Shown one piece after another: positions 2,541 through 15,659 of a stretch of 64,000 nucleotides of DNA. The position numbers and the translations under genes are program-made. Below the pieces are notes generated by a model. It saw only the letters and a program-made list of their open reading frames with translations, searched no databases and had not been told where the DNA came from. The DNA is taken from the NCBI GenBank assembly GCA_000092065.1, contig CP000584.1. One strand, 5' to 3'. The stretch's first letter is position 1. Each line of letters starts with the position of its first letter. The stretch is from Ostreococcus lucimarinus (Eukaryota).

Positions 2541-5500
2541 TTACTCTGGTTTGAGACTCTCTGGGGAGGAGCCATTGTCTTCGTCGCTGCCAGCTCTAGC
2601 CTCTGCCCTTGACCGTCTTCGGAACACTCCTTGAGCAGACGAAAGCCAGCCAGTTAAAATACTCGCCGACGCCGTGCTGAGTGTTTTTGGACGTCTCGTA
2701 TCGAATGCCAACTCCGGATCGTCCGATGACTCAAGATCGGAAGAGCTACCAGAGTCGGAAGTGAGCGCTTGGCGTTTTGGGCCTCCGGACAGCGGCGTAT
2801 TCGCGAGGCTCATTTCCTTTTCTGCGCGCGAGCGTTGCAACCATTGACTCATCACCGAAGCAGCCACGTAAGAAACTGGTTGGCGTTCTGGTGAGGCGGA
2901 ATCACTGGACAACTGAGAAGACGAATCACCGGAATCATCCGAAAGATTCGCTTTCGGTGCAGACGGAGGCACGCTTGCGCGCATCTCTCTCGCTCTCGTC
3001 AACCAGTCTCGCATGACCATCTTTGAAGTTTGACTCATGTGCTCAGTCGTGGCGTACTTGGGTTCTGTATCAGTGTCACTTTCCGACGAGAAGTCAGTCG
3101 AAGAGAACACAGCAGTATTCGTGAGCGACGATTGTCTGTTTGCACGAAGTTGCTTAACCGCAGCCAACCAACCCGTAAGGGCGGCAGAAGAAGCTTCGGA
3201 AAGATTGACAGGCGGGAACCGTTGGAGACCAGCCTCTGTCTCACTTTCAGACGTATCAGAGAGCATGCGGAGATTTACTCCGCGTCCAGATGCTCTCGAA
3301 GCGGCGTGTGTGAGCCATATTCGCATGGCTGCTTCAGCACCCACTGATAGCTTCACTTCTCCGAAGTCTTCTTCCATATCCGAGTCTGACTCTGACATCT
3401 CACCAGCCTTCATTCTACGACGCACAGCTTTTCCGAGTTTCAGCCGCCTTGCAGTACGAGGAGATAGAATTTCTTGTAACTGATCAATGACCCAGTCCCT
3501 ATTCTTTGACATGAAAAGATGGCGGAACTGATCACTCGTGAGGTCGGCCGTCGTGACATCCATCGTTTGGAGGCTGTCGCCACCGCTATCCTCAATCACG
3601 GCTGCCATTTTAGGTACGAAAATGGAAGAAAAATCCTCATCAAGAGAATCCTCGATGATGATTTCCCCAGACGTGATCGAAGAAGTGATTCGCCAGAGGC
3701 CGAAGTGATTTGCCAAGAGGAGGGCGAGACGCTTTGCCGTGTAAGATGCGCCGAGAACCATGAGAACACAAGCCCAGAAGAGGATATCTTCAAACATGTT
3801 GTAGTTTGCTCGGAGCATCATGGAGAGAGCGAGGACGAACAAGAAAGATCCCGAGCCGCCGAGCGCAAGCACAAAGTAGAACTGACTCGAGAAGCACATT
3901 TGATCAATCGCGCGAAGACCGGGGTCAATTGATTCATCGTAAACGCGTTCGAAACCTTTCCATCGCGACGTACGATTGATGAATCGATATCGAGCGTACT
4001 TCAAATACTCGTACACCTTCCAGCCATGGAACAATTCCTGAATGTTGAAAGTTATGATGTCCATGACAATCCAGAACGGAATAATCACGACAGAGAAGAG
4101 AAGATAAATCAAAAGATCCTTCTTTCTGAAACCGTACAGGTACGACAGTCTCAGCTGGTCGTTGAAATCCCAGAAAAAGAAAATGAAGAAAGGCGTCATG
4201 TAGTTAACAGCCGTGTTTACGCCGTAAGCGGCGAGGAAGCCCATTAAATCTTCGACCAACGTATCTTCTGCATCGATTTTTTCCTCTACTTCGACGTCAT
4301 CGTCGTCACCAAAGTTAAATGGTAACAAATTCATGATGTAGTTCACGACTGCGCTGATTTTGTCTGGGAGTACGAGGGCGCAGTACGCGATGAACGCATC
4401 AAGATATACGTACTCGACCATACCCATGATAGTCTCGAAAAAGAAACCAAGGGTGAAATCTGTAAAGTCATCGGCTCCGATCGTCGCAACGCCAACGGCT
4501 GAAGCAAGTACGACCGATACTGGAGCGAGTAAGAAAGCTTCTCCCAACGCGGTTTCTATCTGCATTTCCATGATTACGTGAGCGACCTTCAAGAGGAAGA
4601 AAATGGTAAAGAACTGGACACCGAACGTATCAGTAAACGAGAACTCAATCAAGAAGACATTTGTCACGTTAACTAAGATATTCATCAAAACGAAATGACT
4701 TCGTTTCCAGACTTCTGGTTTGAACATCACTTCATCGACGTAGCGCTCGTCCTCCAATTCCTTCTCTTCTTCGTCTTTCAGTTCGGCAGGGACTAAGATT
4801 TCGGCGGCGCATCCCATCATATACATACCAGCTGTCAAAAAGCAGACTGCGTATCGACCAGCGGTCGCTTTTTCTACGACAGCTGGATCGATTTCACGGC
4901 CGATATTATCAATACTGATCGGGAACTCTGTAATGATTGGGAACGCGACAAACACGGCCCGGAGTCCGAACTGCGCTGTCGCAAACGGTAACATGCCGAG
5001 CGTGACACCCATCAGAGGTGGACCAATCATTATTCGAAGATATGGTAAGAATCGGAATCTCGGTGGTTCTTTCAATAGTGTGAAGATTCTCACGACCACC
5101 CACACAGAAAAGATCAACAACACGACGAGCATTCCGATCGCAAAGAAAAGCGCCAAGTAGAACAGGAAATCAAAAGCAAAGAAATTGAGCAAATCGAACC
5201 AACCTAGCGCTGATACCGCCACGCTAAGCGTGTAAGTACCATCGTGAGCCGTAGCGGATACGTATTCGTCCATCGTCACCGTGGCCGCGATGATTCGTTT
5301 GTCTGAGTCGGTGAATTGATAGTACAAGATCTCAAATTCAACCTTCGTCGGCATCAAACCAGCCGTCAAAACGAATCCTTCGACGGGCGCAAAAATCACA
5401 GGAATATTTTCTTGCGCCGTGATATCGGCCATGTACTTCTCTTTATTTGCGGCTGGCTCCGTCTGGTCGTTCGCCAGGGCGCTTGCTTCGAAAAGAGCGT

Positions 5501-8500
5501 CTTGACTTTCAGCCTCCGCTGTCAAGTAGAACAAGGTGTCACCCTCAGCTTCGTACCAACGCTTCTTTGCTGAAGCTTCTGTGTAGGCCTCTTCATAGAA
5601 ACAATCGATGGTTAACTCGAGCTCATCTGCAACTGCTGCTTGAACTTGCGGAGAGTATTGATTGATGAAGACTGTTTCTTCTTTTGGCACCAACGTGGTC
5701 TCACCATAACTGACAAACGTGCGATCTTCGCCAAACGTGACGGGCTTGTACGGGTTTTCAGTGAGGTGCGAAAAGAAAATATGACTGTCGAATCCGCGGC
5801 AAGCAGAAAAGAAAGGCAAGTAGTCCATCGCGAACAGCGTCTGGTCAGCCGCCCACAAACCTTCATTGAGCAGATACTTTTCTTGCTCGTACACGTCTGG
5901 AAGTGAAAGAGTGATAGTTTCGTCGGTTTGGCCATCCTCGTTCACTATCACCCAATCCTCTGCTTGCGTCGACGTTAAATCAATGTGCGCTTGGCTGGGA
6001 GAATCTTCGGCTGTTAGCACGTTTTGCTGTCGCAGATATTTGAACTTCTTCCACTCCGCACCATACGTAGAGTTGTAATCGATGGCGGCACGGGCATCAA
6101 GCCTTCTACAACCAGGATCTTGGTTAATATTGGCGCACTCGAAGTAATCGGTCGACACTGATCGATACATTGTCGAGGCCACAGGAGCATTCAAGGGCGC
6201 TTGATACTCTTCGTCAATTTCGAATGGCAAAATGGCGTGCACGGAATACGTCGGCGTTGCACTTGCACGCTCTGGAAATTCGACGTCGATGCAAATACTG
6301 TTCAAGAACGACGCACGATTATCCTCTTGATATCTACCATCCAGCATTCTCAGTTCAATTCTGAAAGGCAAATCATCCAAAGCTTGAATGGATAGTTCGT
6401 GCATACCGCGTTTCCAAACGTAGTTCCCAAAAGTTGGATTCTCAACGTTGTAGCCCGTCGCAGTACCATCGCTATTTCTCGCAAACCAGAACGGCAACTC
6501 TAAAGATTCTTGAGAAGCGGGACACTTCTTTTCCTGCTCCTCACCGGCTATGACCTTCATATTCAGCCATGTTATGCCATCGCCTACATCCCATGGCGGG
6601 CATGGCACGGACTTGTATTCGCTTGCAGGGCACAAGGTGTCATCAATCACTGGATTTGTGAAAATAAGCAGCTCGTAATGTTCGCCGTACTTCAGATTTT
6701 CGTTGATTGTCCGCCAATCAAGCCTCAATTTGGCCGTATGACCTCGAGGTAGAGTGAACTTCATCAAAGGGATATTGTTCTCGTCAACGGCGGCGATGCT
6801 GTTGTCATCTGACAGAATGAATGTCGGGTTCAGGAGTTCCCAATTTTTGTTTGTGCAACTGCCCATGCCCATGTAGTCAAATGGGTCGGTGGGTCCTGTC
6901 GCGTTTGAACTAGAAGTGTTCGTCGTATCGATCTGCAATAGAGTGCGACCTGCAGCGATTTGGCTCTCTACTTCCCGAAGCCATTCAGTGTCACGACCTG
7001 TGGCGTTGATTGTTTTGTAATATGTTTTCTCAATCAAGTCAAAACTGACGGGCATGACTCTCCAGAAAGTGATCAAATCTGCAGAGCACTCGTCCAAACT
7101 TTGTGCCGACGGAGACGACGCCGTCCCTGTGGGACATCGGTTGAGCACTTGTCCAGTTCCCGTCGGACAGAAGAAGCAAGCTTGACACGGGAACTGAGTA
7201 CGCGTAGAGTAAGACGCTCCAGCGGGACAGTAGTAACCAGCGGGACATTTGTTGAAAAATTGTGTTTCCGGAGTAGTACCCGGTCCACAGAAGTATCCGT
7301 CGGGGCACTTTTGTTCGGCAATCGATGTTCGAGCGTCGCACACGTAACCCTCCGGACACAAATCCGCTTCACCTTCTGGATCGAGTTGTAAAAGAACACA
7401 CTTGGAGGCGTCGTAAGCCTCGGTGTTGTCCGCATCGCAATAAGCAGAGTACTCGTTTAACGCAGCTGTACCTTGCCCACGAGGTTTGTTATTGCTCATG
7501 CCATCAATGGCGCACACAAGTCCTGAGTTACACGGCAAACATAACGATTCTTCGGTCAAGCCAATAGATGACGACCAGGTTCCTTTCGGACACTGACGGC
7601 ACGCAATGGAGTCCCGCGCAGAGCGGAAATAACCTGCAGGACATGCGGTTGGTTTGAATGTGCCTTCGTCGACGCACTCGTAGCCTGCAGCGCATGTTAG
7701 ACACTCCTGGAACCCTTCGTAAGGCGTATAGGTGCCCGGAAGACATGTAACGGCTGCGGAGTTACCTTGTCCAGATGTGTATGAACCGCGCGGCGCTGGA
7801 ATCGGAATGTAAGTACGTTTCGGACAGTAATGACCCTCGGTACAAGGTCTCATTGGATTATATACATCCGTCGCCGATTCAGAAACCACAGTGGAATCCC
7901 CTGTAGCCCATTCGCAGAAACTTCCTTCCTTACACGGCTGCGGTTGCTTGAAAGAACCCTCCAACACGATCGAAGTTGTTACACCCTCCGTACAGAACGT
8001 CGTGGGAGGACACGGCTTTGGTCGGAAGTTGTCAACGTTCAACGCAATTGGAGATGCATCGACAATAGCTGCCACATCAATAATTGCGAGAGGATCACGG
8101 GTGACGGTATTTTCAAGGCAGTAATGTCCGGCGGGACAACGGGTACCTGCGACGGCCAGACCTTCAGTGTCGCACACGAAGCCGGGTGTGCACACTTCGG
8201 GCGCCTCACGAGCAAAACCTGGGCAAATCGTGCCTTTTGGACATTTTTGACATGAGTCTTTGCCATAATCGGAGTTGTACTCGCCGGGAAGACATGGTTT
8301 CGGTTCGGCGTTGGCGACACCTGGACAATACATTCGCTTTGGGCATCTCAACTGCTGACCAGGAGGACAGTAATGTCCTGGAGGACACGGACCTACGCCT
8401 TGCGGTGTGATAGAACCAGGTTCACAAACATAACCGGCATAGCACTGCTGTGGAGTGGTGAAATTGTATGCGATACTCGCACTCGACACAACACCGGCGG

Positions 8501-11500
8501 TACAGTACATGCCAAATGGACAAGGTAGTGGCCGCTCGGCAACAGTGAAGTCAGTAAAGTTACTCGTTCGCGTACCCTCCAAACAATAATGGCCGGGTGG
8601 ACATAGTTTATTCGGTACAGTAAGGCCAGTAGAGTCACATACCGCACCCCTCGGACAAATGATCGGGATCATTGAGCCCGCGTCTGGCGAAATGTAGCCC
8701 ACTGGCGTTGGAAGACAGTCAGCTTGGCCGGTTCTGGGTTGGAACGTCCCTGGCGGGCATAAGGTGAAATTTTTTCCACCGCCACAGAATGCGCCTCGTG
8801 GACATAAAATGGCTTCACTTTCAGGGCAGTACGATCCAGACGGACATTGTGCGAAATGGAACAGCAGTCGCTGTTCTGAAAAGTCGACTCCATTTGTGGA
8901 GACTTCGACGAACACTGTACGAGTGCCACTTTGCTCCACGCCCGCAACACAAAGAATAGATCTGGATGACAAGAAAGTTGCTGTCGCAAGCTCTTGTCCA
9001 AATCGACACGTTAAACTGGAAGTATTGACAAAATTTGAACCAGTTATGAAAATGGGGCTTCGACTACCGCTCAGACCAACTTTCGGAATGATACCAGAAA
9101 TTTTTGGTGGAACTTGGTAGACAAACGTTGCCGTGTTGATGGTCGAAAGATCACGATCGTTCCCAGAAATGCTAATATCTGCAATTCCTAATCCTCGTGC
9201 CGGCGTGATGCACGTAAGGACGTCGCTTTGAGTGTTGTATGACGTAATTGGAAAGAAGGTGCCGATGCGGCAACTGTAACGCGCGCCATCGGTCAGGCCA
9301 TTCACAGACACCGAGAGCGTGGTTCCACCGTTCTCCGATCCTGTCTCGGGAGACACAGCGGAAATCATCAAATCGTCAATGTACTCGAACGCGGTACCGT
9401 AACTTGAAATAAAACCCGGATCGTCACGAGGAGCCATTCCAATGCCCACTCGGCGCTCAGTAGACCAAGGTGGAGTGATGCAAAGTCCAAGCGCAGACGA
9501 CACCACGTGCGCGCTTGTTTGCTCGTTGCCAAAGTAACAATAGCCAGACTCGTGCAGATTATCTCCGTCGACATGGAGTACGGTTGTTCCGCTAGCCGTA
9601 CCAATACTAGGGTGAACATTGAGAACGACAGGTGGCATGAAAACTTCAAATCCAATCGGTGTTGCAGCGTCGGGCAAAACCATGATTTCAAGAACAGTAA
9701 AACCGAATCCAGAAGGCGGCGTGTCGCAAGTGATCGTTCGCTGATCTTCAAACGTCGCCTGCGCGACCTGTCCATGTAGTTTGCAGCCTAGGTACGCGCC
9801 GTGTGGCAAGTATATTGCACTGTTGGACATCAACTTCAACGTTGTGTCTCCGGCCGCAACGCTCCTCTTCGGCGAGACAAAAGATGGGACGAGTGGAGTG
9901 AAATATTCAAAGCTACCAACCGATGCGTAATCCTTTGAGTTGTACGTCAAAGAGCCAACAACCACAGTACCATTGAGCCCAGCAGGAGAGATGCAAGTGA
10001 CAGACGTCGACGAACGCTGTTCCGAGGTGCTGATTGGACCTATAGTGCCAAACCGACAGAAGATTTCTTGTTCGGTGGCGTCTTCCGCTAAGTTTCCAAT
10101 ATGAAAAGTGAACAGATTGCCTCCGTTTTCCGACAGATATGGGTTTTCCAGACTCTGACTAAGAAAGTCGAAGTCATCCAAATATTGGAACGCCGCAACT
10201 ATCTCGGAAATATAATTTTCATCATCTCGGGGACTGACGCCAAGCGAAACCATGGGCGAATTCCCACTGAGGACAGGAGAAGTACACACACTGAGAGCGG
10301 ACGAAATGGCGTACGCTGTGGTGTTTTGATCACCGAAATGACAGAAACTTGACTCGTGCAAGTGTTCTCCGGCAACGTGGATCACGGAGGATCCACTGTA
10401 GAACCCGACCGACGGAACCATGCTTGTGACAACAGGCGGCACAAAGATGTCAAAGTCTACCCCGACGCCGTCGAGACCTATGGTAGATAACTCCACAAAT
10501 CCCGCCGAAAGAATCGGAACGGGGCAGCTGAGCGTGTATCTTACACAGTCTCTTTGATTACCGCCGGAACACGTAGATGTCCGAACAGCCTGTGACGATA
10601 GAACGGGAAATAACCCAAACATGCATCCCTTTGGCGTCGAGCTCAAACTGTGCCCGGTGGCTTCAAGGACTACGTCAGCAAGGCCCTCGTTCGAAGCTCT
10701 CCCTGGCACGACATGCATGACCGTCATATCCTCCTCGGAATAAATCAAGACAAAATTGGTAAAGTAAGAAGACGTCAAGTGAGATGACAGCCAGACCCGG
10801 ATGGCATCGGGCGACGTCGGTGAGTGCGCCGGAGTCACGAATTCAAAGCTACTTCCCGAGCTTCGCACATACATCGGGCCGATTGAGCCCACGTGTCCAG
10901 CGGGCGCATCCACCAGTTCTTCAAGTATTCCGACAGAAGTTAGCGAGGAAATTTGTATCGTGTCACCTCCAGAGGTTGCCACCGTTTCCGCGGAGATATC
11001 CAGAAGAGTCGGAGCGGGAATGTAACTGATGGACGTTGTACCCATTTCGTCGTAGTTCAAGCTTCCACCAGTATCGACGTATAACGCAATTCTTCCTTGG
11101 TTATTGGAGAAGTACGGTGACTCGCACGTCACCAAGGTCGACGAATGAACTTTTGCGGGCACATTTACGTCGCCAAAGTAGCACTGCACTGACCCACCAG
11201 CCACATCGAGCAAATCTTCACCACTGATAGTGACTAATTCACCACCAGAATTACTGATCAAAGTTGGGTATGCTGACACTAGAATCGGATCAGGTTGGAA
11301 TAAGAACAACGAATCGGTTTCATCTTTCCCAGGTGAGGCACCTAAACTTATTTGAGCGAACCCTGGGGCGTACGCGGGCATGATACACTCAGATACATAA
11401 GGATTCGTGGAGATGGACGTGGCTGAGACGAAAAATCCAGCGACGTGACACTTAATAGAAGTTTCCATTGGGTTTTCATGGAGAATACGAACAGCAACGC

Positions 11501-14500
11501 CTCCACTCACGGATCCGAATGACGGATACACCGCCGAGGAAGACACTTCGACGGTTTCGTGATAGCTGAAAGGTTGTTTCACCGACGTGAACATCTCACC
11601 GAATAAACGAGCATACATGGGAATGGTACCCGCGATGTGCGCGGGAACTCGACATTCTAGACCATTCCCGGTCAGTTGTCCGATGATGGGACCAAGACTT
11701 CCGAATTTGCAAGCACAATTGTCAAATGATTGCTGATACGGATCAACTTTGTAGTAAATTATCGCAATAGACCCTCCATCTTCGTTACTTTCTTGAGGCG
11801 ACACGTGTAAAGGATTATCTTCCTCCTTGATGTACTCAAAGACAATACCAGAGGACTCAAATTCATCGTCCGTGAGGCTTGTTGAACCACTTGACAGAAA
11901 ACTGAGAACTGCAGAGCCAGCATCATTCGCTGGTTGCTCGATCACAACTAGAGCACTTGACACAAACTGTACCGGAGAGAATTTGGTGCTTCCAAAAACA
12001 AACTTGTTGTGCGTGACTTCGTTGAAGTGAACGCCAGTCAATTTTATTATTTCTCCTCCAGCTTCTGCGCCATCATACGGCTGCAAATTAGTAATCTGCG
12101 CATGAGGTTCATAACTGAGCTGTATTTGCGAAGAATCCCACACGCTCACGTCGTGAATTTGCACCCCAACAGCGACAAAACCGGAGCTGTGCGCTGGAGC
12201 GAGACACAAAACGAGACCGTTTGACTCCACTTTTGCAACTGCCGCGTGAAGATCGAACACGCAAGCGACTGGTAAGGTCGCTAGCGAAGAAGGCAATGTG
12301 CTCGGTGAAATCATAAGCTCCACCAAAGATCCCCCATCTAACGATACCGACGTGCGGTATGGCTCAGTGAGATCTATGTTGGCAATGTATTCGTACAGAA
12401 GTGTCGTCGCCGCATTGTCACGCTCATTCATAGCCACAGTCACTGGAACTGTCGCAGGTGAATGGGCAGGCAGGATACATTCAACTTTTTCGGATGAACC
12501 CTGCGTAAGGGAAATTCCAGAGATCGTACCAACTTTGCATGATATTACGCTCAAATCCGTGGAAAAGTCTCCATAGATGTCAACCACAGCACCGCCGGCT
12601 TCCAATCCTCGCGCAGCTGGGTGATCTATTTCGAGTCCAGGAAGAAGAATGAAAGTTATTTGGAAATCCGCACTTTGTTCCACGTCGTTGTATACAAGTT
12701 GTAAAGCAGTGTCATCCTTGCCTTCGGGCGTCACACACACGACGAGCGCCGAAGAAATTACGTGTATAGATGACTTTGCAGTACCTGCACTTGTCGTGTA
12801 ACCGCACGAAGCACTGTAATTCGTACCGCCCCAGATCATATTGGATCCCGTCACATATACCAAACTTCCCCCAATCGTTGGGAATGTGAGTGGAGTCGCT
12901 CTCATGAGTTTCGGTTTGGCAACATAATGGAACTCGAGAGCTGACGACGTAAAATCTTGCAAGTTCATAGAGACATCGATCACCGTGAATCCAGATTTAG
13001 ACGCCGGAGCATTGCAAACAGTATTTGATCCGAAGATGAATGCATTCGTAGTGGTTGAACCAAACCTACACGAAAGATGACTTCCGTAGAAGTTTTCACC
13101 GAACAAAGTCACCGAGGTGCCGCCGGTAACAAAACTCGATTCTGGTATTGTCATTGATGACAACGTCGCGATCACCTTGTACTCAAATGTAGCCGCCGAT
13201 TGACTCAGCTTAATTTCAAACGCAGTATTGTGATGGAACACGTTGACTGGGACTGAACCTGCGCTGTGCGCAGGAGAGACGCAAGACGCCGCATTCATGG
13301 ACAACCATCGTCCAAGAACATTCGAAATGGTTCCAATCCTGAAAGCCAGTGAAACGTCGTTTCGAAACGCCAGGCCATCAAATGAAAGAATAGTACCACC
13401 TTGAGACGGCCCAGTCTTGGGAACTACCCGATGTATGACCGAGGAAGATGTGTTCATGAACTCAAACGGTAAGCCTGGAACCGACCAATCAAAGGCATTG
13501 TTTGAGACTGCAAGGTCATGGTATCCGACCTCCATGCTCGGAGATTCGCACATCACTTGCGAGGGTGAAATAAACGCTGCACGGAATGGAGCTAATGTAC
13601 CGAATCGACACAAAGAAGAGGGAGAAAAGTGATCACCATACACCACGATGGCTGTCCCACCGATGGACGGGCCAGACAGCGGAAGCAAGTGATCCAGCAA
13701 CACCTTCCTCGTTAAAATATCATTTGCATCGGTACTGGAGACGATGTTATTGCCGGAGCTATCGACAATTCTTATATCGTACTCGTTTACGCCGTTGTTA
13801 TCTTCGGGTAACCCACAGAGAACAGAACCATCGCTGAGGACGATGCCTGGGACCAAGGCGTCACCATTTCCAAGATTGCAATACACATCTTGACCAGGAA
13901 CAAATCCCGTACCAGTCACAGTTGCGGTATTATTATCGTTGTTTATAATTGTGGTCACTGACGCTTCAGTAGTATACAAGAAAGTCACCTGCGGACCATC
14001 AGCAAACATGGCGCCGAACTCGCTGACCATGCCGATGTCAAAATTCACCCAACCCTCTACGTGCGCAGGCGCTAGGCACCTATATTCATCTGCAGCGATC
14101 CATTCGCCCACGACAGGACCAATTGAGCCAAACTTACACGCGAGATCGTGTGAATCACTGAAAGAGTGCCCGGCAGCTGTGACTGTGGTACCGCCCTCGA
14201 CTAAACCCATTGATGGTGATAGAGCCGTGACCACTGGAGGTGGATCAAACAAAAATTGCGGCTTCATCGCTAATTCTACTGCGGTTGCTACTACCGATAC
14301 GTCCAGTGCATATGCACCTTCAAACATGCTAGGCGTTTCGCAAATCATCAACGCCGAGGAAACATGTGTTGCCGCTACGGTAGTCGTACCAAACCTACAG
14401 ACAGGATTGTCTTGCAGCAAATGCTCCCCTTCTATGTGGACTAATGTTCCACCTCCTATGGCACCAACTCTGGGCGCTATTCTAGTAATTTCAATCACGT

Positions 14501-15659
14501 CCTTTAATTCAAGCTGCACACTGTCTGATGCAAAGACGGAATATTGGAAATCTTGACCGTTCGAGGCCACCGCAACGGAGACAAAACCGATTCCAGCTGG
14601 AGCTACGCAGGTCACAGCGTTGGTTCCCGCGAGACCTGGAACTTTATGCGAGCCAAATTTACACGCAAGCTCTGGTGTTTGCACGACACTCTGTACCGTG
14701 ATAGACACATGGGAAGATCCTGCCGAAGAGACCTGGAACGGCGCGATTGCATCGACAACGAGACTCGATAGAAAAGTGAACGAGTTTGAGAATGTCACAT
14801 AGTCTCGATGATTCATCGAGACGCTCAGGGGCTTAGCCGCTAAAGAAGATGCAGGCGTCGCGCACTCCAATGTATTTTCATTCTGGTAAATCGCGGAGAC
14901 CTCAATTGCTCCGAAGCGACACCGCAACAAACTTGTCGGCGCAAAATTTTGTCCCGTCAGCGTCACCAACGTGCCCCCTTCGCCAGTACCGACTGCTGGA
15001 CTGACGCGACTTATCGACGGCGCGCCGATATAAATGTGCTGGACGCTACTGAAAGCCTCGAAAAAGTTTGAGGAAGTCAAAGACACGTCCACAGCGACGG
15101 TTCCCTTGTCGATCGAAGGTGATTCACACTTCATCAAACCAGACGAGACGATGTGCCCAGTAGTCGTGAGGTCGCCAAATCGACAGTACTGCGACACGTG
15201 CATATCAGCACCGAATACGTCTACGATACCTCCTGAAATACCATACACAGAGTTCACGGCGTCCACCTTGGCGCCACTCACAAATTGATATCCTTTTGTT
15301 CTCAAAAAGTCTCCCGTTTCATTGTTGAGCGCGAATTCGACGTTTACGAAACCCTCCGTGTGTGACGGTGCTGTGCATTTGACCGTCTCGGCGTCTACGT
15401 AATACGCCCGAACGAACTCATTATCAAACTTGCACGTGAGCTCTGCCCCTGGTATATTCTGAACCGCTGCCAGCTGCTTACTCGAGAGCGTGACGACTTC
15501 GCCGCCGCCCACGTGTCCCGCGCTCGGATACATCCATTCCACCTCTGGAATCTCAAATCCTCGAGCGCCGCACGCGAAGCACGCCGCCACCGTGATTAGG
15601 AATAAAACCAACCAAATCGCACGCGATGGACGAAACGACCTCATATCGCTCGTCCTCAT
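2541..15659 (-). CDS. Giant (4372 aa) single-exon receptor-like protein. Order: signal peptide, about 24 tandem IPT/TIG-like Ig-fold repeats (approx. 8900..15560), a Cys-rich CPxGxYC module (approx. 7080..8860), an unassigned extracellular region, about 11 TM helices (approx. 3480..5220), and a Ser/acidic cytoplasmic tail (2541..3480)
   Basis: Uninterrupted 13,119-nt ORF. N-terminus is MRTSDMRSFRPSRAIWLVLFLITVAACFACGARG. The recurring unit P..G...GGT.V.V.G..F.......C(K/R)FG......A.......C.AP......G.V.V.V occurs about 24 times. Many CPPGHYC/CPAGYYC motifs and multiple long hydrophobic segments are near the C-terminus. Confidence 0.85.
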   Translation of the reverse strand: MRTSDMRSFRPSRAIWLVLFLITVAACFACGARGFEIPEVEWMYPSAGHVGGGEVVTLSSKQLAAVQNIPGAELTCKFDNEFVRAYYVDAETVKCTAPSHTEGFVNVEFALNNETGDFLRTKGYQFVSGAKVDAVNSVYGISGGIVDVFGADMHVSQYCRFGDLTTTGHIVSSGLMKCESPSIDKGTVAVDVSLTSSNFFEAFSSVQHIYIGAPSISRVSPAVGTGEGGTLVTLTGQNFAPTSLLRCRFGAIEVSAIYQNENTLECATPASSLAAKPLSVSMNHRDYVTFSNSFTFLSSLVVDAIAPFQVSSAGSSHVSITVQSVVQTPELACKFGSHKVPGLAGTNAVTCVAPAGIGFVSVAVASNGQDFQYSVFASDSVQLELKDVIEITRIAPRVGAIGGGTLVHIEGEHLLQDNPVCRFGTTTVAATHVSSALMICETPSMFEGAYALDVSVVATAVELAMKPQFLFDPPPVVTALSPSMGLVEGGTTVTAAGHSFSDSHDLACKFGSIGPVVGEWIAADEYRCLAPAHVEGWVNFDIGMVSEFGAMFADGPQVTFLYTTEASVTTIINNDNNTATVTGTGFVPGQDVYCNLGNGDALVPGIVLSDGSVLCGLPEDNNGVNEYDIRIVDSSGNNIVSSTDANDILTRKVLLDHLLPLSGPSIGGTAIVVYGDHFSPSSLCRFGTLAPFRAAFISPSQVMCESPSMEVGYHDLAVSNNAFDWSVPGLPFEFMNTSSSVIHRVVPKTGPSQGGTILSFDGLAFRNDVSLAFRIGTISNVLGRWLSMNAASCVSPAHSAGSVPVNVFHHNTAFEIKLSQSAATFEYKVIATLSSMTIPESSFVTGGTSVTLFGENFYGSHLSCRFGSTTTNAFIFGSNTVCNAPASKSGFTVIDVSMNLQDFTSSALEFHYVAKPKLMRATPLTFPTIGGSLVYVTGSNMIWGGTNYSASCGYTTSAGTAKSSIHVISSALVVCVTPEGKDDTALQLVYNDVEQSADFQITFILLPGLEIDHPAARGLEAGGAVVDIYGDFSTDLSVISCKVGTISGISLTQGSSEKVECILPAHSPATVPVTVAMNERDNAATTLLYEYIANIDLTEPYRTSVSLDGGSLVELMISPSTLPSSLATLPVACVFDLHAAVAKVESNGLVLCLAPAHSSGFVAVGVQIHDVSVWDSSQIQLSYEPHAQITNLQPYDGAEAGGEIIKLTGVHFNEVTHNKFVFGSTKFSPVQFVSSALVVIEQPANDAGSAVLSFLSSGSTSLTDDEFESSGIVFEYIKEEDNPLHVSPQESNEDGGSIAIIYYKVDPYQQSFDNCACKFGSLGPIIGQLTGNGLECRVPAHIAGTIPMYARLFGEMFTSVKQPFSYHETVEVSSSAVYPSFGSVSGGVAVRILHENPMETSIKCHVAGFFVSATSISTNPYVSECIMPAYAPGFAQISLGASPGKDETDSLFLFQPDPILVSAYPTLISNSGGELVTISGEDLLDVAGGSVQCYFGDVNVPAKVHSSTLVTCESPYFSNNQGRIALYVDTGGSLNYDEMGTTSISYIPAPTLLDISAETVATSGGDTIQISSLTSVGILEELVDAPAGHVGSIGPMYVRSSGSSFEFVTPAHSPTSPDAIRVWLSSHLTSSYFTNFVLIYSEEDMTVMHVVPGRASNEGLADVVLEATGHSLSSTPKGCMFGLFPVLSSQAVRTSTCSGGNQRDCVRYTLSCPVPILSAGFVELSTIGLDGVGVDFDIFVPPVVTSMVPSVGFYSGSSVIHVAGEHLHESSFCHFGDQNTTAYAISSALSVCTSPVLSGNSPMVSLGVSPRDDENYISEIVAAFQYLDDFDFLSQSLENPYLSENGGNLFTFHIGNLAEDATEQEIFCRFGTIGPISTSEQRSSTSVTCISPAGLNGTVVVGSLTYNSKDYASVGSFEYFTPLVPSFVSPKRSVAAGDTTLKLMSNSAIYLPHGAYLGCKLHGQVAQATFEDQRTITCDTPPSGFGFTVLEIMVLPDAATPIGFEVFMPPVVLNVHPSIGTASGTTVLHVDGDNLHESGYCYFGNEQTSAHVVSSALGLCITPPWSTERRVGIGMAPRDDPGFISSYGTAFEYIDDLMISAVSPETGSENGGTTLSVSVNGLTDGARYSCRIGTFFPITSYNTQSDVLTCITPARGLGIADISISGNDRDLSTINTATFVYQVPPKISGIIPKVGLSGSRSPIFITGSNFVNTSSLTCRFGQELATATFLSSRSILCVAGVEQSGTRTVFVEVSTNGVDFSEQRLLFHFAQCPSGSYCPESEAILCPRGAFCGGGKNFTLCPPGTFQPRTGQADCLPTPVGYISPDAGSMIPIICPRGAVCDSTGLTVPNKLCPPGHYCLEGTRTSNFTDFTVAERPLPCPFGMYCTAGVVSSASIAYNFTTPQQCYAGYVCEPGSITPQGVGPCPPGHYCPPGQQLRCPKRMYCPGVANAEPKPCLPGEYNSDYGKDSCQKCPKGTICPGFAREAPEVCTPGFVCDTEGLAVAGTRCPAGHYCLENTVTRDPLAIIDVAAIVDASPIALNVDNFRPKPCPPTTFCTEGVTTSIVLEGSFKQPQPCKEGSFCEWATGDSTVVSESATDVYNPMRPCTEGHYCPKRTYIPIPAPRGSYTSGQGNSAAVTCLPGTYTPYEGFQECLTCAAGYECVDEGTFKPTACPAGYFRSARDSIACRQCPKGTWSSSIGLTEESLCLPCNSGLVCAIDGMSNNKPRGQGTAALNEYSAYCDADNTEAYDASKCVLLQLDPEGEADLCPEGYVCDARTSIAEQKCPDGYFCGPGTTPETQFFNKCPAGYYCPAGASYSTRTQFPCQACFFCPTGTGQVLNRCPTGTASSPSAQSLDECSADLITFWRVMPVSFDLIEKTYYKTINATGRDTEWLREVESQIAAGRTLLQIDTTNTSSSNATGPTDPFDYMGMGSCTNKNWELLNPTFILSDDNSIAAVDENNIPLMKFTLPRGHTAKLRLDWRTINENLKYGEHYELLIFTNPVIDDTLCPASEYKSVPCPPWDVGDGITWLNMKVIAGEEQEKKCPASQESLELPFWFARNSDGTATGYNVENPTFGNYVWKRGMHELSIQALDDLPFRIELRMLDGRYQEDNRASFLNSICIDVEFPERASATPTYSVHAILPFEIDEEYQAPLNAPVASTMYRSVSTDYFECANINQDPGCRRLDARAAIDYNSTYGAEWKKFKYLRQQNVLTAEDSPSQAHIDLTSTQAEDWVIVNEDGQTDETITLSLPDVYEQEKYLLNEGLWAADQTLFAMDYLPFFSACRGFDSHIFFSHLTENPYKPVTFGEDRTFVSYGETTLVPKEETVFINQYSPQVQAAVADELELTIDCFYEEAYTEASAKKRWYEAEGDTLFYLTAEAESQDALFEASALANDQTEPAANKEKYMADITAQENIPVIFAPVEGFVLTAGLMPTKVEFEILYYQFTDSDKRIIAATVTMDEYVSATAHDGTYTLSVAVSALGWFDLLNFFAFDFLFYLALFFAIGMLVVLLIFSVWVVVRIFTLLKEPPRFRFLPYLRIMIGPPLMGVTLGMLPFATAQFGLRAVFVAFPIITEFPISIDNIGREIDPAVVEKATAGRYAVCFLTAGMYMMGCAAEILVPAELKDEEEKELEDERYVDEVMFKPEVWKRSHFVLMNILVNVTNVFLIEFSFTDTFGVQFFTIFFLLKVAHVIMEMQIETALGEAFLLAPVSVVLASAVGVATIGADDFTDFTLGFFFETIMGMVEYVYLDAFIAYCALVLPDKISAVVNYIMNLLPFNFGDDDDVEVEEKIDAEDTLVEDLMGFLAAYGVNTAVNYMTPFFIFFFWDFNDQLRLSYLYGFRKKDLLIYLLFSVVIIPFWIVMDIITFNIQELFHGWKVYEYLKYARYRFINRTSRWKGFERVYDESIDPGLRAIDQMCFSSQFYFVLALGGSGSFLFVLALSMMLRANYNMFEDILFWACVLMVLGASYTAKRLALLLANHFGLWRITSSITSGEIIIEDSLDEDFSSIFVPKMAAVIEDSGGDSLQTMDVTTADLTSDQFRHLFMSKNRDWVIDQLQEILSPRTARRLKLGKAVRRRMKAGEMSESDSDMEEDFGEVKLSVGAEAAMRIWLTHAASRASGRGVNLRMLSDTSESETEAGLQRFPPVNLSEASSAALTGWLAAVKQLRANRQSSLTNTAVFSSTDFSSESDTDTEPKYATTEHMSQTSKMVMRDWLTRAREMRASVPPSAPKANLSDDSGDSSSQLSSDSASPERQPVSYVAASVMSQWLQRSRAEKEMSLANTPLSGGPKRQALTSDSGSSSDLESSDDPELAFDTRRPKTLSTASASILTGWLSSAQGVFRRRSRAEARAGSDEDNGSSPESLKPE

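What the first reader, a model, noticed from the sequence alone, without database searches (positions are those of the whole stretch)
2541..15659. 13.1-kb intronless gene encoding a 4372-aa TIG-array receptor fused to an about 11-TM polytopic domain
This is a single uninterrupted ORF in a genome whose other genes are 0.3-4 kb. It encodes a cleavable signal peptide, about 24 consecutive IPT/TIG-type Ig-fold repeats (each with the C(K/R)FG...C.(A/S)P core), a 600-aa Cys-rich CPxGxYC module, a roughly 600-aa unassigned ectodomain, a cluster of about 11 transmembrane helices, and a 300-aa Ser/acidic tail. An adhesion/sensor ectodomain joined to a channel- or transporter-like membrane core recalls polycystin-1/fibrocystin-type architectures, but there is no obvious PLAT, GPS or G8 domain. 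It is a candidate cell-surface mechanosensor or adhesion receptor in a wall-less picoeukaryote. It accounts for 20% of the window and is markedly less GC-rich than its neighbours.
Basis: partly seen in the sequence, partly recalled or inferred. Interest (0 to 1): 0.8.

Follow-up and report, generated by a model that had tools for sequence, protein, structure and literature searches.

The report
Giant TIG-array receptor, novel 11-helix core
This 13-kb gene of the tiny marine alga Ostreococcus lucimarinus really does encode one giant surface-receptor-like protein, and its membrane-spanning part belongs to a large protein family, found in many groups of protists, that I found in no curated domain library, solved structure or searchable paper.

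Summary
Window 2541-15659 (-) is one 4372-codon ORF, identical to the Ostreococcus lucimarinus CCE9901 predicted protein XP_001417452.1 / A4RVQ0.

From N to C terminus it has:
- an N-terminal hydrophobic leader
- 25 tandem IPT/TIG repeats
- a ~620-aa Cys-rich module of the Ephrin-receptor-like (GCC2_GCC3) type
- an unassigned ~390-aa region
- a beta-rich juxtamembrane domain
- 11 TM helices, N-out/C-in
- a 380-aa Ser/acidic tail with repeated WLxxAR-type motifs

The ~2000-aa C-terminal module defines a large family: 1613 clusters at 50% identity. Named members come from green algae, oomycetes, a chlorarachniophyte, a dinoflagellate and a jakobid. TIG arrays in the family vary from 1 to 43 repeats.

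The polycystin-1/fibrocystin comparison is therefore architectural only. The most likely role is a cell-surface adhesion or sensing receptor whose conserved polytopic core transduces the signal. That function is inferred, not shown.

The parts
2541..15659 (-). Whole ORF, 4372 codons plus stop. It equals O. lucimarinus XP_001417452.1.
15561..15659 (-). aa 1-33: N-terminal leader with a hydrophobic core at aa 14-32. Probably a signal peptide, with cleavage near GARG|FE (inferred).
   Evidence: one search gives the hydropathy peak of 2.44. Cleavage was inferred by eye and not predicted with a tool.
8853..15548 (-). aa 38-2269: 25 tandem IPT/TIG Ig-fold repeats of ~88 aa each, most carrying a conserved Cys pair (CxFG ... 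CxxP).
   Evidence: Pfam TIG E=2.9e-156. Self-built HMM finds 25 units. Weak PDB sequence matches to plexin and MET IPT domains. Mean pairwise repeat identity is 23%.
6990..8852 (-). aa 2270-2890: Cys-rich CPxGxxC module of the Ephrin-receptor-like / GCC2_GCC3 type.
   Evidence: Cys density. PF07699 at 26 bits against a 23.1 cut-off. About 15-22 CxxGxxC motifs upstream of the core in the long family members listed.
5826..6989 (-). aa 2891-3278: ectodomain region conserved in the family, with no Pfam match. Partly beta, but the model is poor.
   Evidence: pLDDT 55
5190..5825 (-). aa 3279-3490: conserved beta-rich juxtamembrane domain. It starts at the LPFFSxCRGFDSHI motif and ends with YYQ..KR.
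   Evidence: Profile positions ~105 onward are matched in nearly all family members. Seven strands in the AF2 model. Conservation pattern.
3690..5189 (-). aa 3491-3990: 11-TM core. AF2 helices at 3498-3526, 3537-3572, 3592-3622, 3648-3674, 3683-3705, 3708-3727, 3732-3757, 3810-3831, 3846-3872, 3925-3951 and 3961-3985. The cytosolic TM9-TM10 loop (ELFHGWK...RWKG...CFSSQ) is highly conserved.
2544..3689 (-). aa 3991-4372: cytosolic tail. It has a conserved FRxxFxxNRxW segment, then five repeats of an acidic/Ser cluster followed by a WLxxAR-type basic helix.

Best explanation
This is a single gene for a giant membrane protein with its N terminus outside the cell. It belongs to a widespread protist family that I could not find described anywhere.

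**Shown**
- The domain order is leader, 25 TIG Ig-fold repeats, a disulfide-rich GCC2_GCC3-like stalk, two further conserved ectodomain regions, an 11-TM core and a cytosolic tail.
- The C-terminal ~2000 aa (stalk to tail) is the constant module of the family. The TIG array is the variable part.
- The core is the most conserved part of the protein and resembles no solved structure.

**Inferred mechanism**
- The TIG array forms a rod of roughly 90-100 nm (25 Ig-like domains at about 4 nm each) projecting from the naked plasma membrane. There it binds an external partner (another cell, a particle or a surface) or bears tension.
- Displacement is passed through the rigid Cys-rich stalk and the beta-rich juxtamembrane domain onto the 11-TM bundle.
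- The bundle then changes conformation. The most likely form is gating of a cation path involving the conserved acidic residues E3672, the GAxDFxDF hairpin, D3849 and mid-membrane D3867. A purely allosteric signal is the alternative.
- The signal is read out by the highly conserved cytosolic TM9-TM10 loop and by the tail. The tail's repeated WLxxAR helices next to Ser/acidic clusters look like phospho-regulated docking sites.
For: **One gene**
- One intact ORF.
- Wild-population copies keep the same reading frame with only 3-16 aa changes. One variant was seen on 242 contigs.
- The same domain order is found in Bigelowiella and Prasinoderma proteins and on a distant metagenomic contig.
- All 53 family representatives with at least 1500 aa upstream of the core carry TIG repeats (1-43). 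The long members listed carry about 15-22 CxxGxxC motifs.

**Extracellular ectodomain**
- N-terminal hydrophobic leader.
- A conserved Cys pair in most TIG repeats, and 57 Cys in aa 2201-2900.
- 14 of 19 NxS/T sites lie in the ectodomain.
- K+R counts of 19 inside and 3 outside for N-out/C-in with 11 TM helices.

**The core is more than an anchor**
- 79% identity to the Ostreococcus-clade ortholog, against 63% for the ectodomain and tail.
- 1613 family clusters, 449 of them at E<=1e-30.
- Named members come from green algae, oomycetes, Rhizaria, a dinoflagellate and a jakobid.
- Conserved acidic residues at and within the TM helices, and a highly conserved cytosolic loop.
- Confident AF2 model with pLDDT 81.5 and pTM 0.80.

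**Tail signalling motifs**
- FRxxFxxNRxW is present in 93 of 129 tails.
- The WLxxAR-type motif occurs at 4.0 per 1000 aa in tails, against 0.07 in ectodomains.
Against: - There are no localisation, expression or functional data for any family member. I found no paper on the family.
- The core gives no meaningful match to any known channel, transporter or receptor fold, so 'ion path' rests only on conserved acidic residues.
- Only a few of this protein's intramembrane charges are conserved across the family.
- The low GC3 (0.51) could mean weak expression.
- The ~78%-identical ortholog on metagenome contig L001 is interrupted by frame changes. If real, these would suggest the gene is dispensable in that lineage. 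Assembly error is at least as likely.
- The ectodomain could equally face an endomembrane lumen.
Confidence: 0.45

Rival explanations
1. Passive surface fibril or glycocalyx protein. The TIG rod would be a structural or adhesive coat element, and the 11-TM bundle would only anchor it firmly or oligomerise it in the membrane, with no signalling or transport activity.
For: - The ectodomain makes up about 80% of the protein, and TIG number varies freely from 1 to 43 across the family, as expected for a spacer or coat.
- No known channel or transporter fold was detected.
Against: - The core and its cytosolic loop are the most conserved parts: 79% against 63% identity to the ortholog, and conserved across distant eukaryotic lineages.
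- A single helix would suffice as an anchor.
- The cytosolic tail motifs are conserved and about 55-fold enriched.
Confidence: 0.2
2. Functional analogue of the alveolate CRMPs. It would be a Cys-rich multipass receptor that senses contact with a target and triggers regulated exocytosis or another membrane event as part of a larger complex.
For: - The layout is the same as described for CRMPs: signal peptide, Cys-rich EGF/Ephrin-receptor-like repeats, multiple C-terminal TM helices and a cytosolic C-terminus (PMC9670195, PMC9815656).
- The family includes a dinoflagellate member.
Against: - Profile comparisons between this core and TgCRMPA, TgCRMPB, PbCRMP1 and PbCRMP2 give a probability below 1%.
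- CRMPs have 9 TM helices; this protein has 11.
- From general knowledge, Ostreococcus has no known extrusive organelles.
Confidence: 0.1
3. Endomembrane protein. The 'ectodomain' would be luminal (ER, Golgi or vacuole), and the protein would act in cargo or polysaccharide handling rather than at the cell surface.
For: The topology evidence cannot distinguish a lumen from the cell exterior. No localisation data exist.
Against: - A rod of ~100 nm is hard to fit into the cisternae of a 1-um cell (inference).
- TIG arrays with Cys-rich stalks are typical of surface receptors such as plexin, MET and fibrocystin (general knowledge; weak plexin/MET sequence matches).
Confidence: 0.12
4. Very distant member of the TMEM16/OSCA/TMC superfamily of channels and scramblases.
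For: - The TM count is similar: 10-11 TM helices in that superfamily (general knowledge), 11 here.
Against: - No Pfam Anoctamin, RSN1_7TM or TMC match in any of the 33 family members scanned.
- No PDB sequence match with the family profile.
Confidence: 0.05
5. Gene-model artefact. Two or more adjacent genes (a TIG protein and a membrane protein) would happen to be in frame.
For: The ortholog on contig L001 is called as four separate products: 3130, 708, 92 and 419 aa.
Against: - There is no stop codon in 13.1 kb.
- An identical continuous ORF is seen in hundreds of environmental contigs.
- The same fusion occurs in distant eukaryotic lineages.
- The L001 breaks are frame shifts with no loss of homologous sequence.
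Confidence: 0.03

Closest known systems
Polycystin-1 (PKD1) and PKD1-like/REJ proteins
   Same: A very large ectodomain built largely of Ig-fold repeats, about 11 TM helices and a cytosolic C-terminal tail. Polycystin-1 is thought to couple extracellular mechanical or ligand cues to a membrane core.
   Different: No REJ, GAIN/GPS, PLAT or PKD_channel domain. The modelled core does not retrieve polycystin or TRP structures. The repeats are IPT/TIG, not PKD domains.
Fibrocystin (PKHD1) / PKHD1L1, plexins and MET
   Same: Tandem IPT/TIG arrays in a cell-surface ectodomain. Plexin-A and MET are the only PDB sequence matches.
   Different: Those proteins are single-pass. No G8/PbH1 (fibrocystin), Sema/PSI or RasGAP (plexin), or kinase (MET) domain is found here. 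This protein ends in an 11-TM core.
Cysteine repeat modular proteins (CRMPs) of Apicomplexa and ciliates
   Same: Signal peptide, Ephrin-receptor-like/EGF-like Cys-rich repeats, a polytopic C-terminal core and a cytosolic tail. CRMPs are proposed contact sensors (PMC9670195, PMC9815656).
   Different: CRMPs have a 9-TM core with no detectable sequence-profile similarity to this one. The papers read describe no TIG array in CRMPs.
Meckelin (TMEM67)
   Same: A Cys-rich domain, then a beta-rich domain, then a multi-TM bundle. It appears third in the Foldseek list.
   Different: The match is not significant (E 0.52, probability 0.08, TM-score 0.08). Meckelin has 7 TM helices and no TIG array.

Membership tests
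IPT/TIG domain (Pfam PF01833) | Match to the TIG profile above the gathering score | tested here: met
   508 bits against a 20.9 cut-off, 17 stretches. 25 units found with a self-built HMM.
Ephrin_rec_like / GCC2_GCC3 Cys-rich repeats (PF07699) | Match above the gathering score | tested here: met
   26 bits against 23.1 for aa 2265-2900 alone, but only 18.7 bits in the whole protein. A marginal member.
Polycystin-1 / PKD1-like | PKD_channel-type last six TM helices | tested here: not met
Polycystin-1 / PKD1-like | REJ, GAIN/GPS and PLAT domains | tested here: not met
   No Pfam match at E<=1 for the whole protein or E<=10 for fragments.
Polycystin-1 / PKD1-like | About 11 TM helices, N-out/C-in | tested here: met
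   11 helices. K+R counts of 19 inside and 3 outside. This shows analogy only.
Fibrocystin (PKHD1) | G8 and PbH1 domains and a single TM helix | tested here: not met
   No G8 or PbH1 match. 11 TM helices instead of one.
CRMP (cysteine repeat modular proteins) | Conserved core of EGF-like domains plus the CRMP 9-TM bundle | tested here: not met
   hhalign probability 0.06-0.3% against TgCRMPA, TgCRMPB and a 4-sequence CRMP profile. hmmsearch found nothing in either direction.
TMEM16 / OSCA / TMC | Anoctamin, RSN1_7TM or TMC profile match, or a clear fold match | tested here: not met
Unnamed family defined here (variable TIG array plus constant stalk / 11-TM module) | LPFFSxCxGFDSxI ... YYQ..KR juxtamembrane domain, 11 TM helices, ELFHGWK...RWK...CFSSQ loop | tested here: met
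   The protein seeds the profile. 1613 clusters match at E<=1e-3, nearly all over profile positions ~105-810.
Unnamed family defined here | TIG array and Cys-rich module upstream of the core; tail with FRxxFxxNRxW and WLxxAR-type repeats | tested here: met
   53 of 53 long members have TIG repeats, and the long members listed have about 15-22 CxxGxxC motifs. Tail motifs are in 93 and 102 of 129 members.

The most novel reading that the evidence does not exclude
The 11-TM core, with its beta-rich extracellular cap and conserved mid-membrane aspartate, is a previously unrecognised class of force- or ligand-gated ion channel or transducer. It would date from early in eukaryote evolution, being present in green algae, stramenopiles, Rhizaria, alveolates and jakobids. 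In that reading, giant TIG rods of adjustable length serve as the 'antenna'. This would be a protist counterpart, of independent origin, to polycystin-1 and CRMP systems.
Probability: 0.2. Interest if true: 0.85.

Novelty: new variant of a known kind. Interest (0 to 1): 0.6.

Why it matters
Ostreococcus is the smallest free-living eukaryote, with a naked cell and a very compact genome (general knowledge). Even so, it keeps a 13-kb gene intact in wild populations. This gene is an entry point to a family of giant receptors that is common in marine protists and oomycete pathogens. The family's membrane core has no curated domain model, no solved relative and no publication that I could find.

If the core transduces signals or conducts ions, it would be a new membrane-protein fold and function with wide phylogenetic reach. 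It would also be a candidate for how wall-less picoplankton sense contact, particles, mates or viruses. O. tauri can be modified by homologous recombination (general knowledge), so the question can be tested directly.

Tried and rejected
**Homology to known families**
1. Polycystin, fibrocystin, anoctamin and OSCA homology: no Pfam matches in the protein, its fragments or 33 relatives.
2. PDB relatives by sequence, using a single sequence and two profiles: only plexin/MET IPT domains matched, and nothing matched the core.
3. Fold searches with a confident core model:
   - Foldseek-PDB best E 0.29.
   - BFVD viral structures: nothing.
   - AFDB50 was not available.
4. CRMP homology was a lead from memory. 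I tested it with sequences taken from the supplement of PMC9815656 and rejected it.

**Searches that led nowhere**
5. Word-indexed protein searches with an alignment and with a family consensus returned almost nothing. The index also did not return the query's own 4330-aa cluster, so long proteins seem to escape it. The exhaustive HMMER search was what revealed the family. An earlier attempt failed because the profile was too long.
6. The model of the unassigned ectodomain, aa 2880-3300, was poor (pLDDT 55), so I did not use it for fold search.
7. No internal sequence repeat was found within the TM core.
8. No relatives in viral contigs. The prokaryotic genome scan could not be run with the alignment.
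9. Literature searches by accession, locus tag and keywords found no description of the protein or the family.
Full report
**Observation**

The window contains one open reading frame on the minus strand from 15659 down to 2541. It has 4372 codons and an ATG start. No other ORF in the 64-kb window exceeds 702 aa.

An exact-sequence look-up identifies the product as the Ostreococcus lucimarinus CCE9901 predicted protein XP_001417452.1 / ABO95745.1. UniRef100_A4RVQ0 calls it 'IPT/TIG domain-containing protein', and it sits on a 930,724-bp contig. So the gene model already exists in public annotation, but only as an uncharacterised protein.

The same cluster holds 182 members. Environmental copies differ by only 3-16 residues and keep the frame intact over 4330 aa. 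One variant was seen on 242 contigs. Prokaryote-style gene callers start those copies at Met43, which removes the leader.

GC is 0.47-0.51 across the gene, against ~0.6 in the flanks. GC3 is 0.51, against 0.61-0.79 in neighbouring ORFs. The ortholog on contig L001 is also lower in GC than its flank, at 0.504 against 0.557.

**Anatomy**

- **Leader.** There is a hydrophobic peak at aa 14-32. It is followed by small residues compatible with signal-peptide cleavage. This is inferred, and no dedicated predictor was available.
- **TIG array.** Pfam gives IPT/TIG at E=2.9e-156 with 17 stretches. An HMM built iteratively from the repeats finds 25 contiguous units between aa 38 and 2269. Of these, 22 are strong and 3 are degenerate.
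  - The repeats are old, at 23% mean pairwise identity. One pair (1742-1822 and 2010-2089) is 45% identical, which points to a later segmental duplication.
  - The only PDB sequence matches are weak ones to the IPT domains of plexin-A and MET.
- **Cys-rich stalk.** Residues ~2270-2890 are rich in cysteine, with 57 Cys in aa 2201-2900. Scanned alone, this region passes the Ephrin_rec_like (GCC2_GCC3) threshold at 26 bits against 23.1.
- **Unassigned ectodomain.** Residues 2891-3278 match nothing in Pfam and modelled poorly, with pLDDT 55.
- **Conserved core.** From aa 3279 a conserved block begins.
  - An AlphaFold2 model of aa 3262-4010, built from a 33-sequence alignment, has pLDDT 81.5 and pTM 0.80.
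  - It shows a beta-rich juxtamembrane domain followed by eleven long helices. These coincide with the eleven family-averaged hydropathy peaks.
  - With the N terminus outside and the C terminus inside, the loops carry 19 K/R on the cytosolic side and 3 on the outer side.
- **Tail.** The tail (aa ~3991-4372) is rich in Ser and acidic residues. It contains five copies of an acidic/Ser cluster followed by a WLxxAR-type basic helix.

**The family**

A word-indexed search with aa 3000-4010 found only five relatives. An exhaustive HMMER search with a trimmed profile against 1.84 billion cluster representatives gave far more: 1613 proteins at E<=1e-3 and 449 at E<=1e-30. Many are 4000-7900 aa long, with the match near the C terminus followed by a 100-700-aa tail.

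Members that carry a source name come from:
- Prasinoderma coloniale (green lineage)
- Albugo laibachii and Aphanomyces invadans (oomycetes)
- Bigelowiella natans (Rhizaria)
- Gymnodinium smaydae (dinoflagellate)
- Andalucia godoyi (jakobid), whose own annotation points to a Guillardia theta protein

All are 'hypothetical' or 'IPT/TIG domain-containing'. The Bigelowiella and Prasinoderma proteins have TIG arrays by Pfam.

All 53 representatives with at least 1500 aa upstream of the core carry TIG repeats (1-43, median 10). The long members listed carry about 15-22 CxxGxxC motifs. A distant metagenomic relative (L002) has the Cys-rich module upstream of the core as well.

The family therefore consists of a constant ~2000-aa module (stalk, two ectodomain regions, 11-TM core and tail) preceded by a TIG array of variable length.

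The tail motifs are also family features. FRxxFxxNRxW occurs in 93 of 129 tails. The WLxxAR-type motif occurs in 102 of 129 tails, at 4.0 per 1000 aa against 0.07 in ectodomains.

Against the Ostreococcus-clade ortholog on L001, identity is 63% in the ectodomain, 79% in the core and 63% in the tail.

**What the core is not**

- No Pfam family matches the core, the preceding region or the tail. This holds for this protein and for 33 family members scanned one by one. That excludes detectable PKD_channel, PLAT, GPS, REJ, G8, anoctamin, RSN1_7TM and TMC domains.
- Family profiles find no PDB chain for the core.
- The confident model finds no significant structure.
  - Foldseek-PDB has a best E of 0.29, with meckelin at 0.52.
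  - Nothing was found in predicted viral structures.
- I recalled the alveolate CRMPs as a possible relative. They have a Cys-rich ectodomain, 9 TM helices and a cytosolic tail, and they act as contact sensors for rhoptry and mucocyst discharge (PMC9670195, PMC9815656). I took TgCRMPA, TgCRMPB, PbCRMP1 and PbCRMP2 core sequences from the paper's supplement. Sequence-profile and profile-profile comparisons gave probabilities below 1%. CRMP is therefore an analogue, not a relative detectable here.

**Mechanism (inferred)**

The core and its cytosolic TM9-TM10 loop are the best-conserved parts. A single helix would be enough for anchoring. For these reasons I think the 11-TM bundle is the active transducer of a surface receptor.

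The proposed sequence is:
1. The TIG rod, roughly 90-100 nm if extended, engages an external partner or bears tension.
2. The disulfide-rich stalk and the beta-rich cap transmit this to the bundle.
3. The bundle either gates a cation path or signals allosterically to the loop and the tail. A cation path is suggested by the conserved acidic positions: E3672, the GAxDFxDF hairpin, D3849 and mid-membrane D3867.
4. The tail's repeated motifs next to Ser/acidic clusters look like phospho-regulated docking sites.

None of these functional steps is shown. Localisation, expression and activity are all unknown. Rival readings are scored separately: passive coat or anchor, CRMP-like trigger of a membrane event, luminal protein, remote TMEM16 relative, and gene-model artefact.

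**Novelty and verdict**

The polycystin/fibrocystin comparison is valid only as an architectural analogy. The protein is already in databases.

Its C-terminal module, however, belongs to a large, taxonomically broad family with no curated domain model, no solved relative and no description in the searchable literature. That literature search covers open-access papers and preprints only.

I rate it a new variant of a known kind, namely a giant modular ectodomain fused to a polytopic core. Interest is moderately high.

Noticed in passing
L001:408-13714 (metagenome contig Ga0494229_00869, JGI 3300046170): The ~63-79%-identical ortholog is split into ORFs of 3170, 726 and 419 aa. The breaks are frame changes near 9932-9962 and between 12040 and 12446. 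No homologous sequence is lost, and the gap length equals the missing 135 aa. This is either assembly indels or a decaying gene copy in that lineage.
   Followed up: partly
window 2544-3689 (-), aa 3991-4372: The tail has five repeats of an acidic/Ser cluster followed by a WLxxAR-type basic helix, plus an FRxxFxxNRxW segment just after TM11. Both are conserved across the family and about 55-fold enriched in tails compared with ectodomains. I could not match them to any known short linear motif. They do not fit the LIR pattern.
   Followed up: partly
window ~8853-10435 (-), aa 1742-2269: TIG repeats 1742-1822 and 2010-2089 are 45% identical, against a 23% mean for the array. This suggests a later duplication of a three-repeat block inside an otherwise ancient array.
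   Followed up: no
window 2541-15659 compared with neighbouring ORFs; L001: GC3 of the giant gene is 0.51, against 0.61-0.79 in neighbouring ORFs. The ortholog is also lower in GC than its flank (0.504 against 0.557). The cause was not examined; weak expression or codon bias, or reduced GC-biased gene conversion, are possibilities.
   Followed up: partly
window 15534-15659 (-), aa 1-42: Nearly all environmental copies of the protein are called from Met43 (4330 aa), which removes the hydrophobic leader. This is an artefact of prokaryote-style gene calling on eukaryotic contigs.
   Followed up: yes
family members P0004 and others (tail region of alignments A3 and A4): Some relatives carry CxxC...CxxC pairs in the tail, and the family profile weakly hits a PDB 'nicking endonuclease' in that region (9qgv, E 0.0014). 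The Ostreococcus protein lacks these cysteines.
   Followed up: no
window 13939-14556 (+): A 205-aa TTG-start ORF lies antisense inside the TIG-coding region. It is most likely a chance ORF in a long coding sequence.
   Followed up: no
L002:2747-3721 and 4014-9098: In the distant relative, the Cys-rich module lies in a different reading frame (frame 2) from the core ORF (frame 3). This implies an intron or a frameshift between the stalk and the core on that contig.
   Followed up: no
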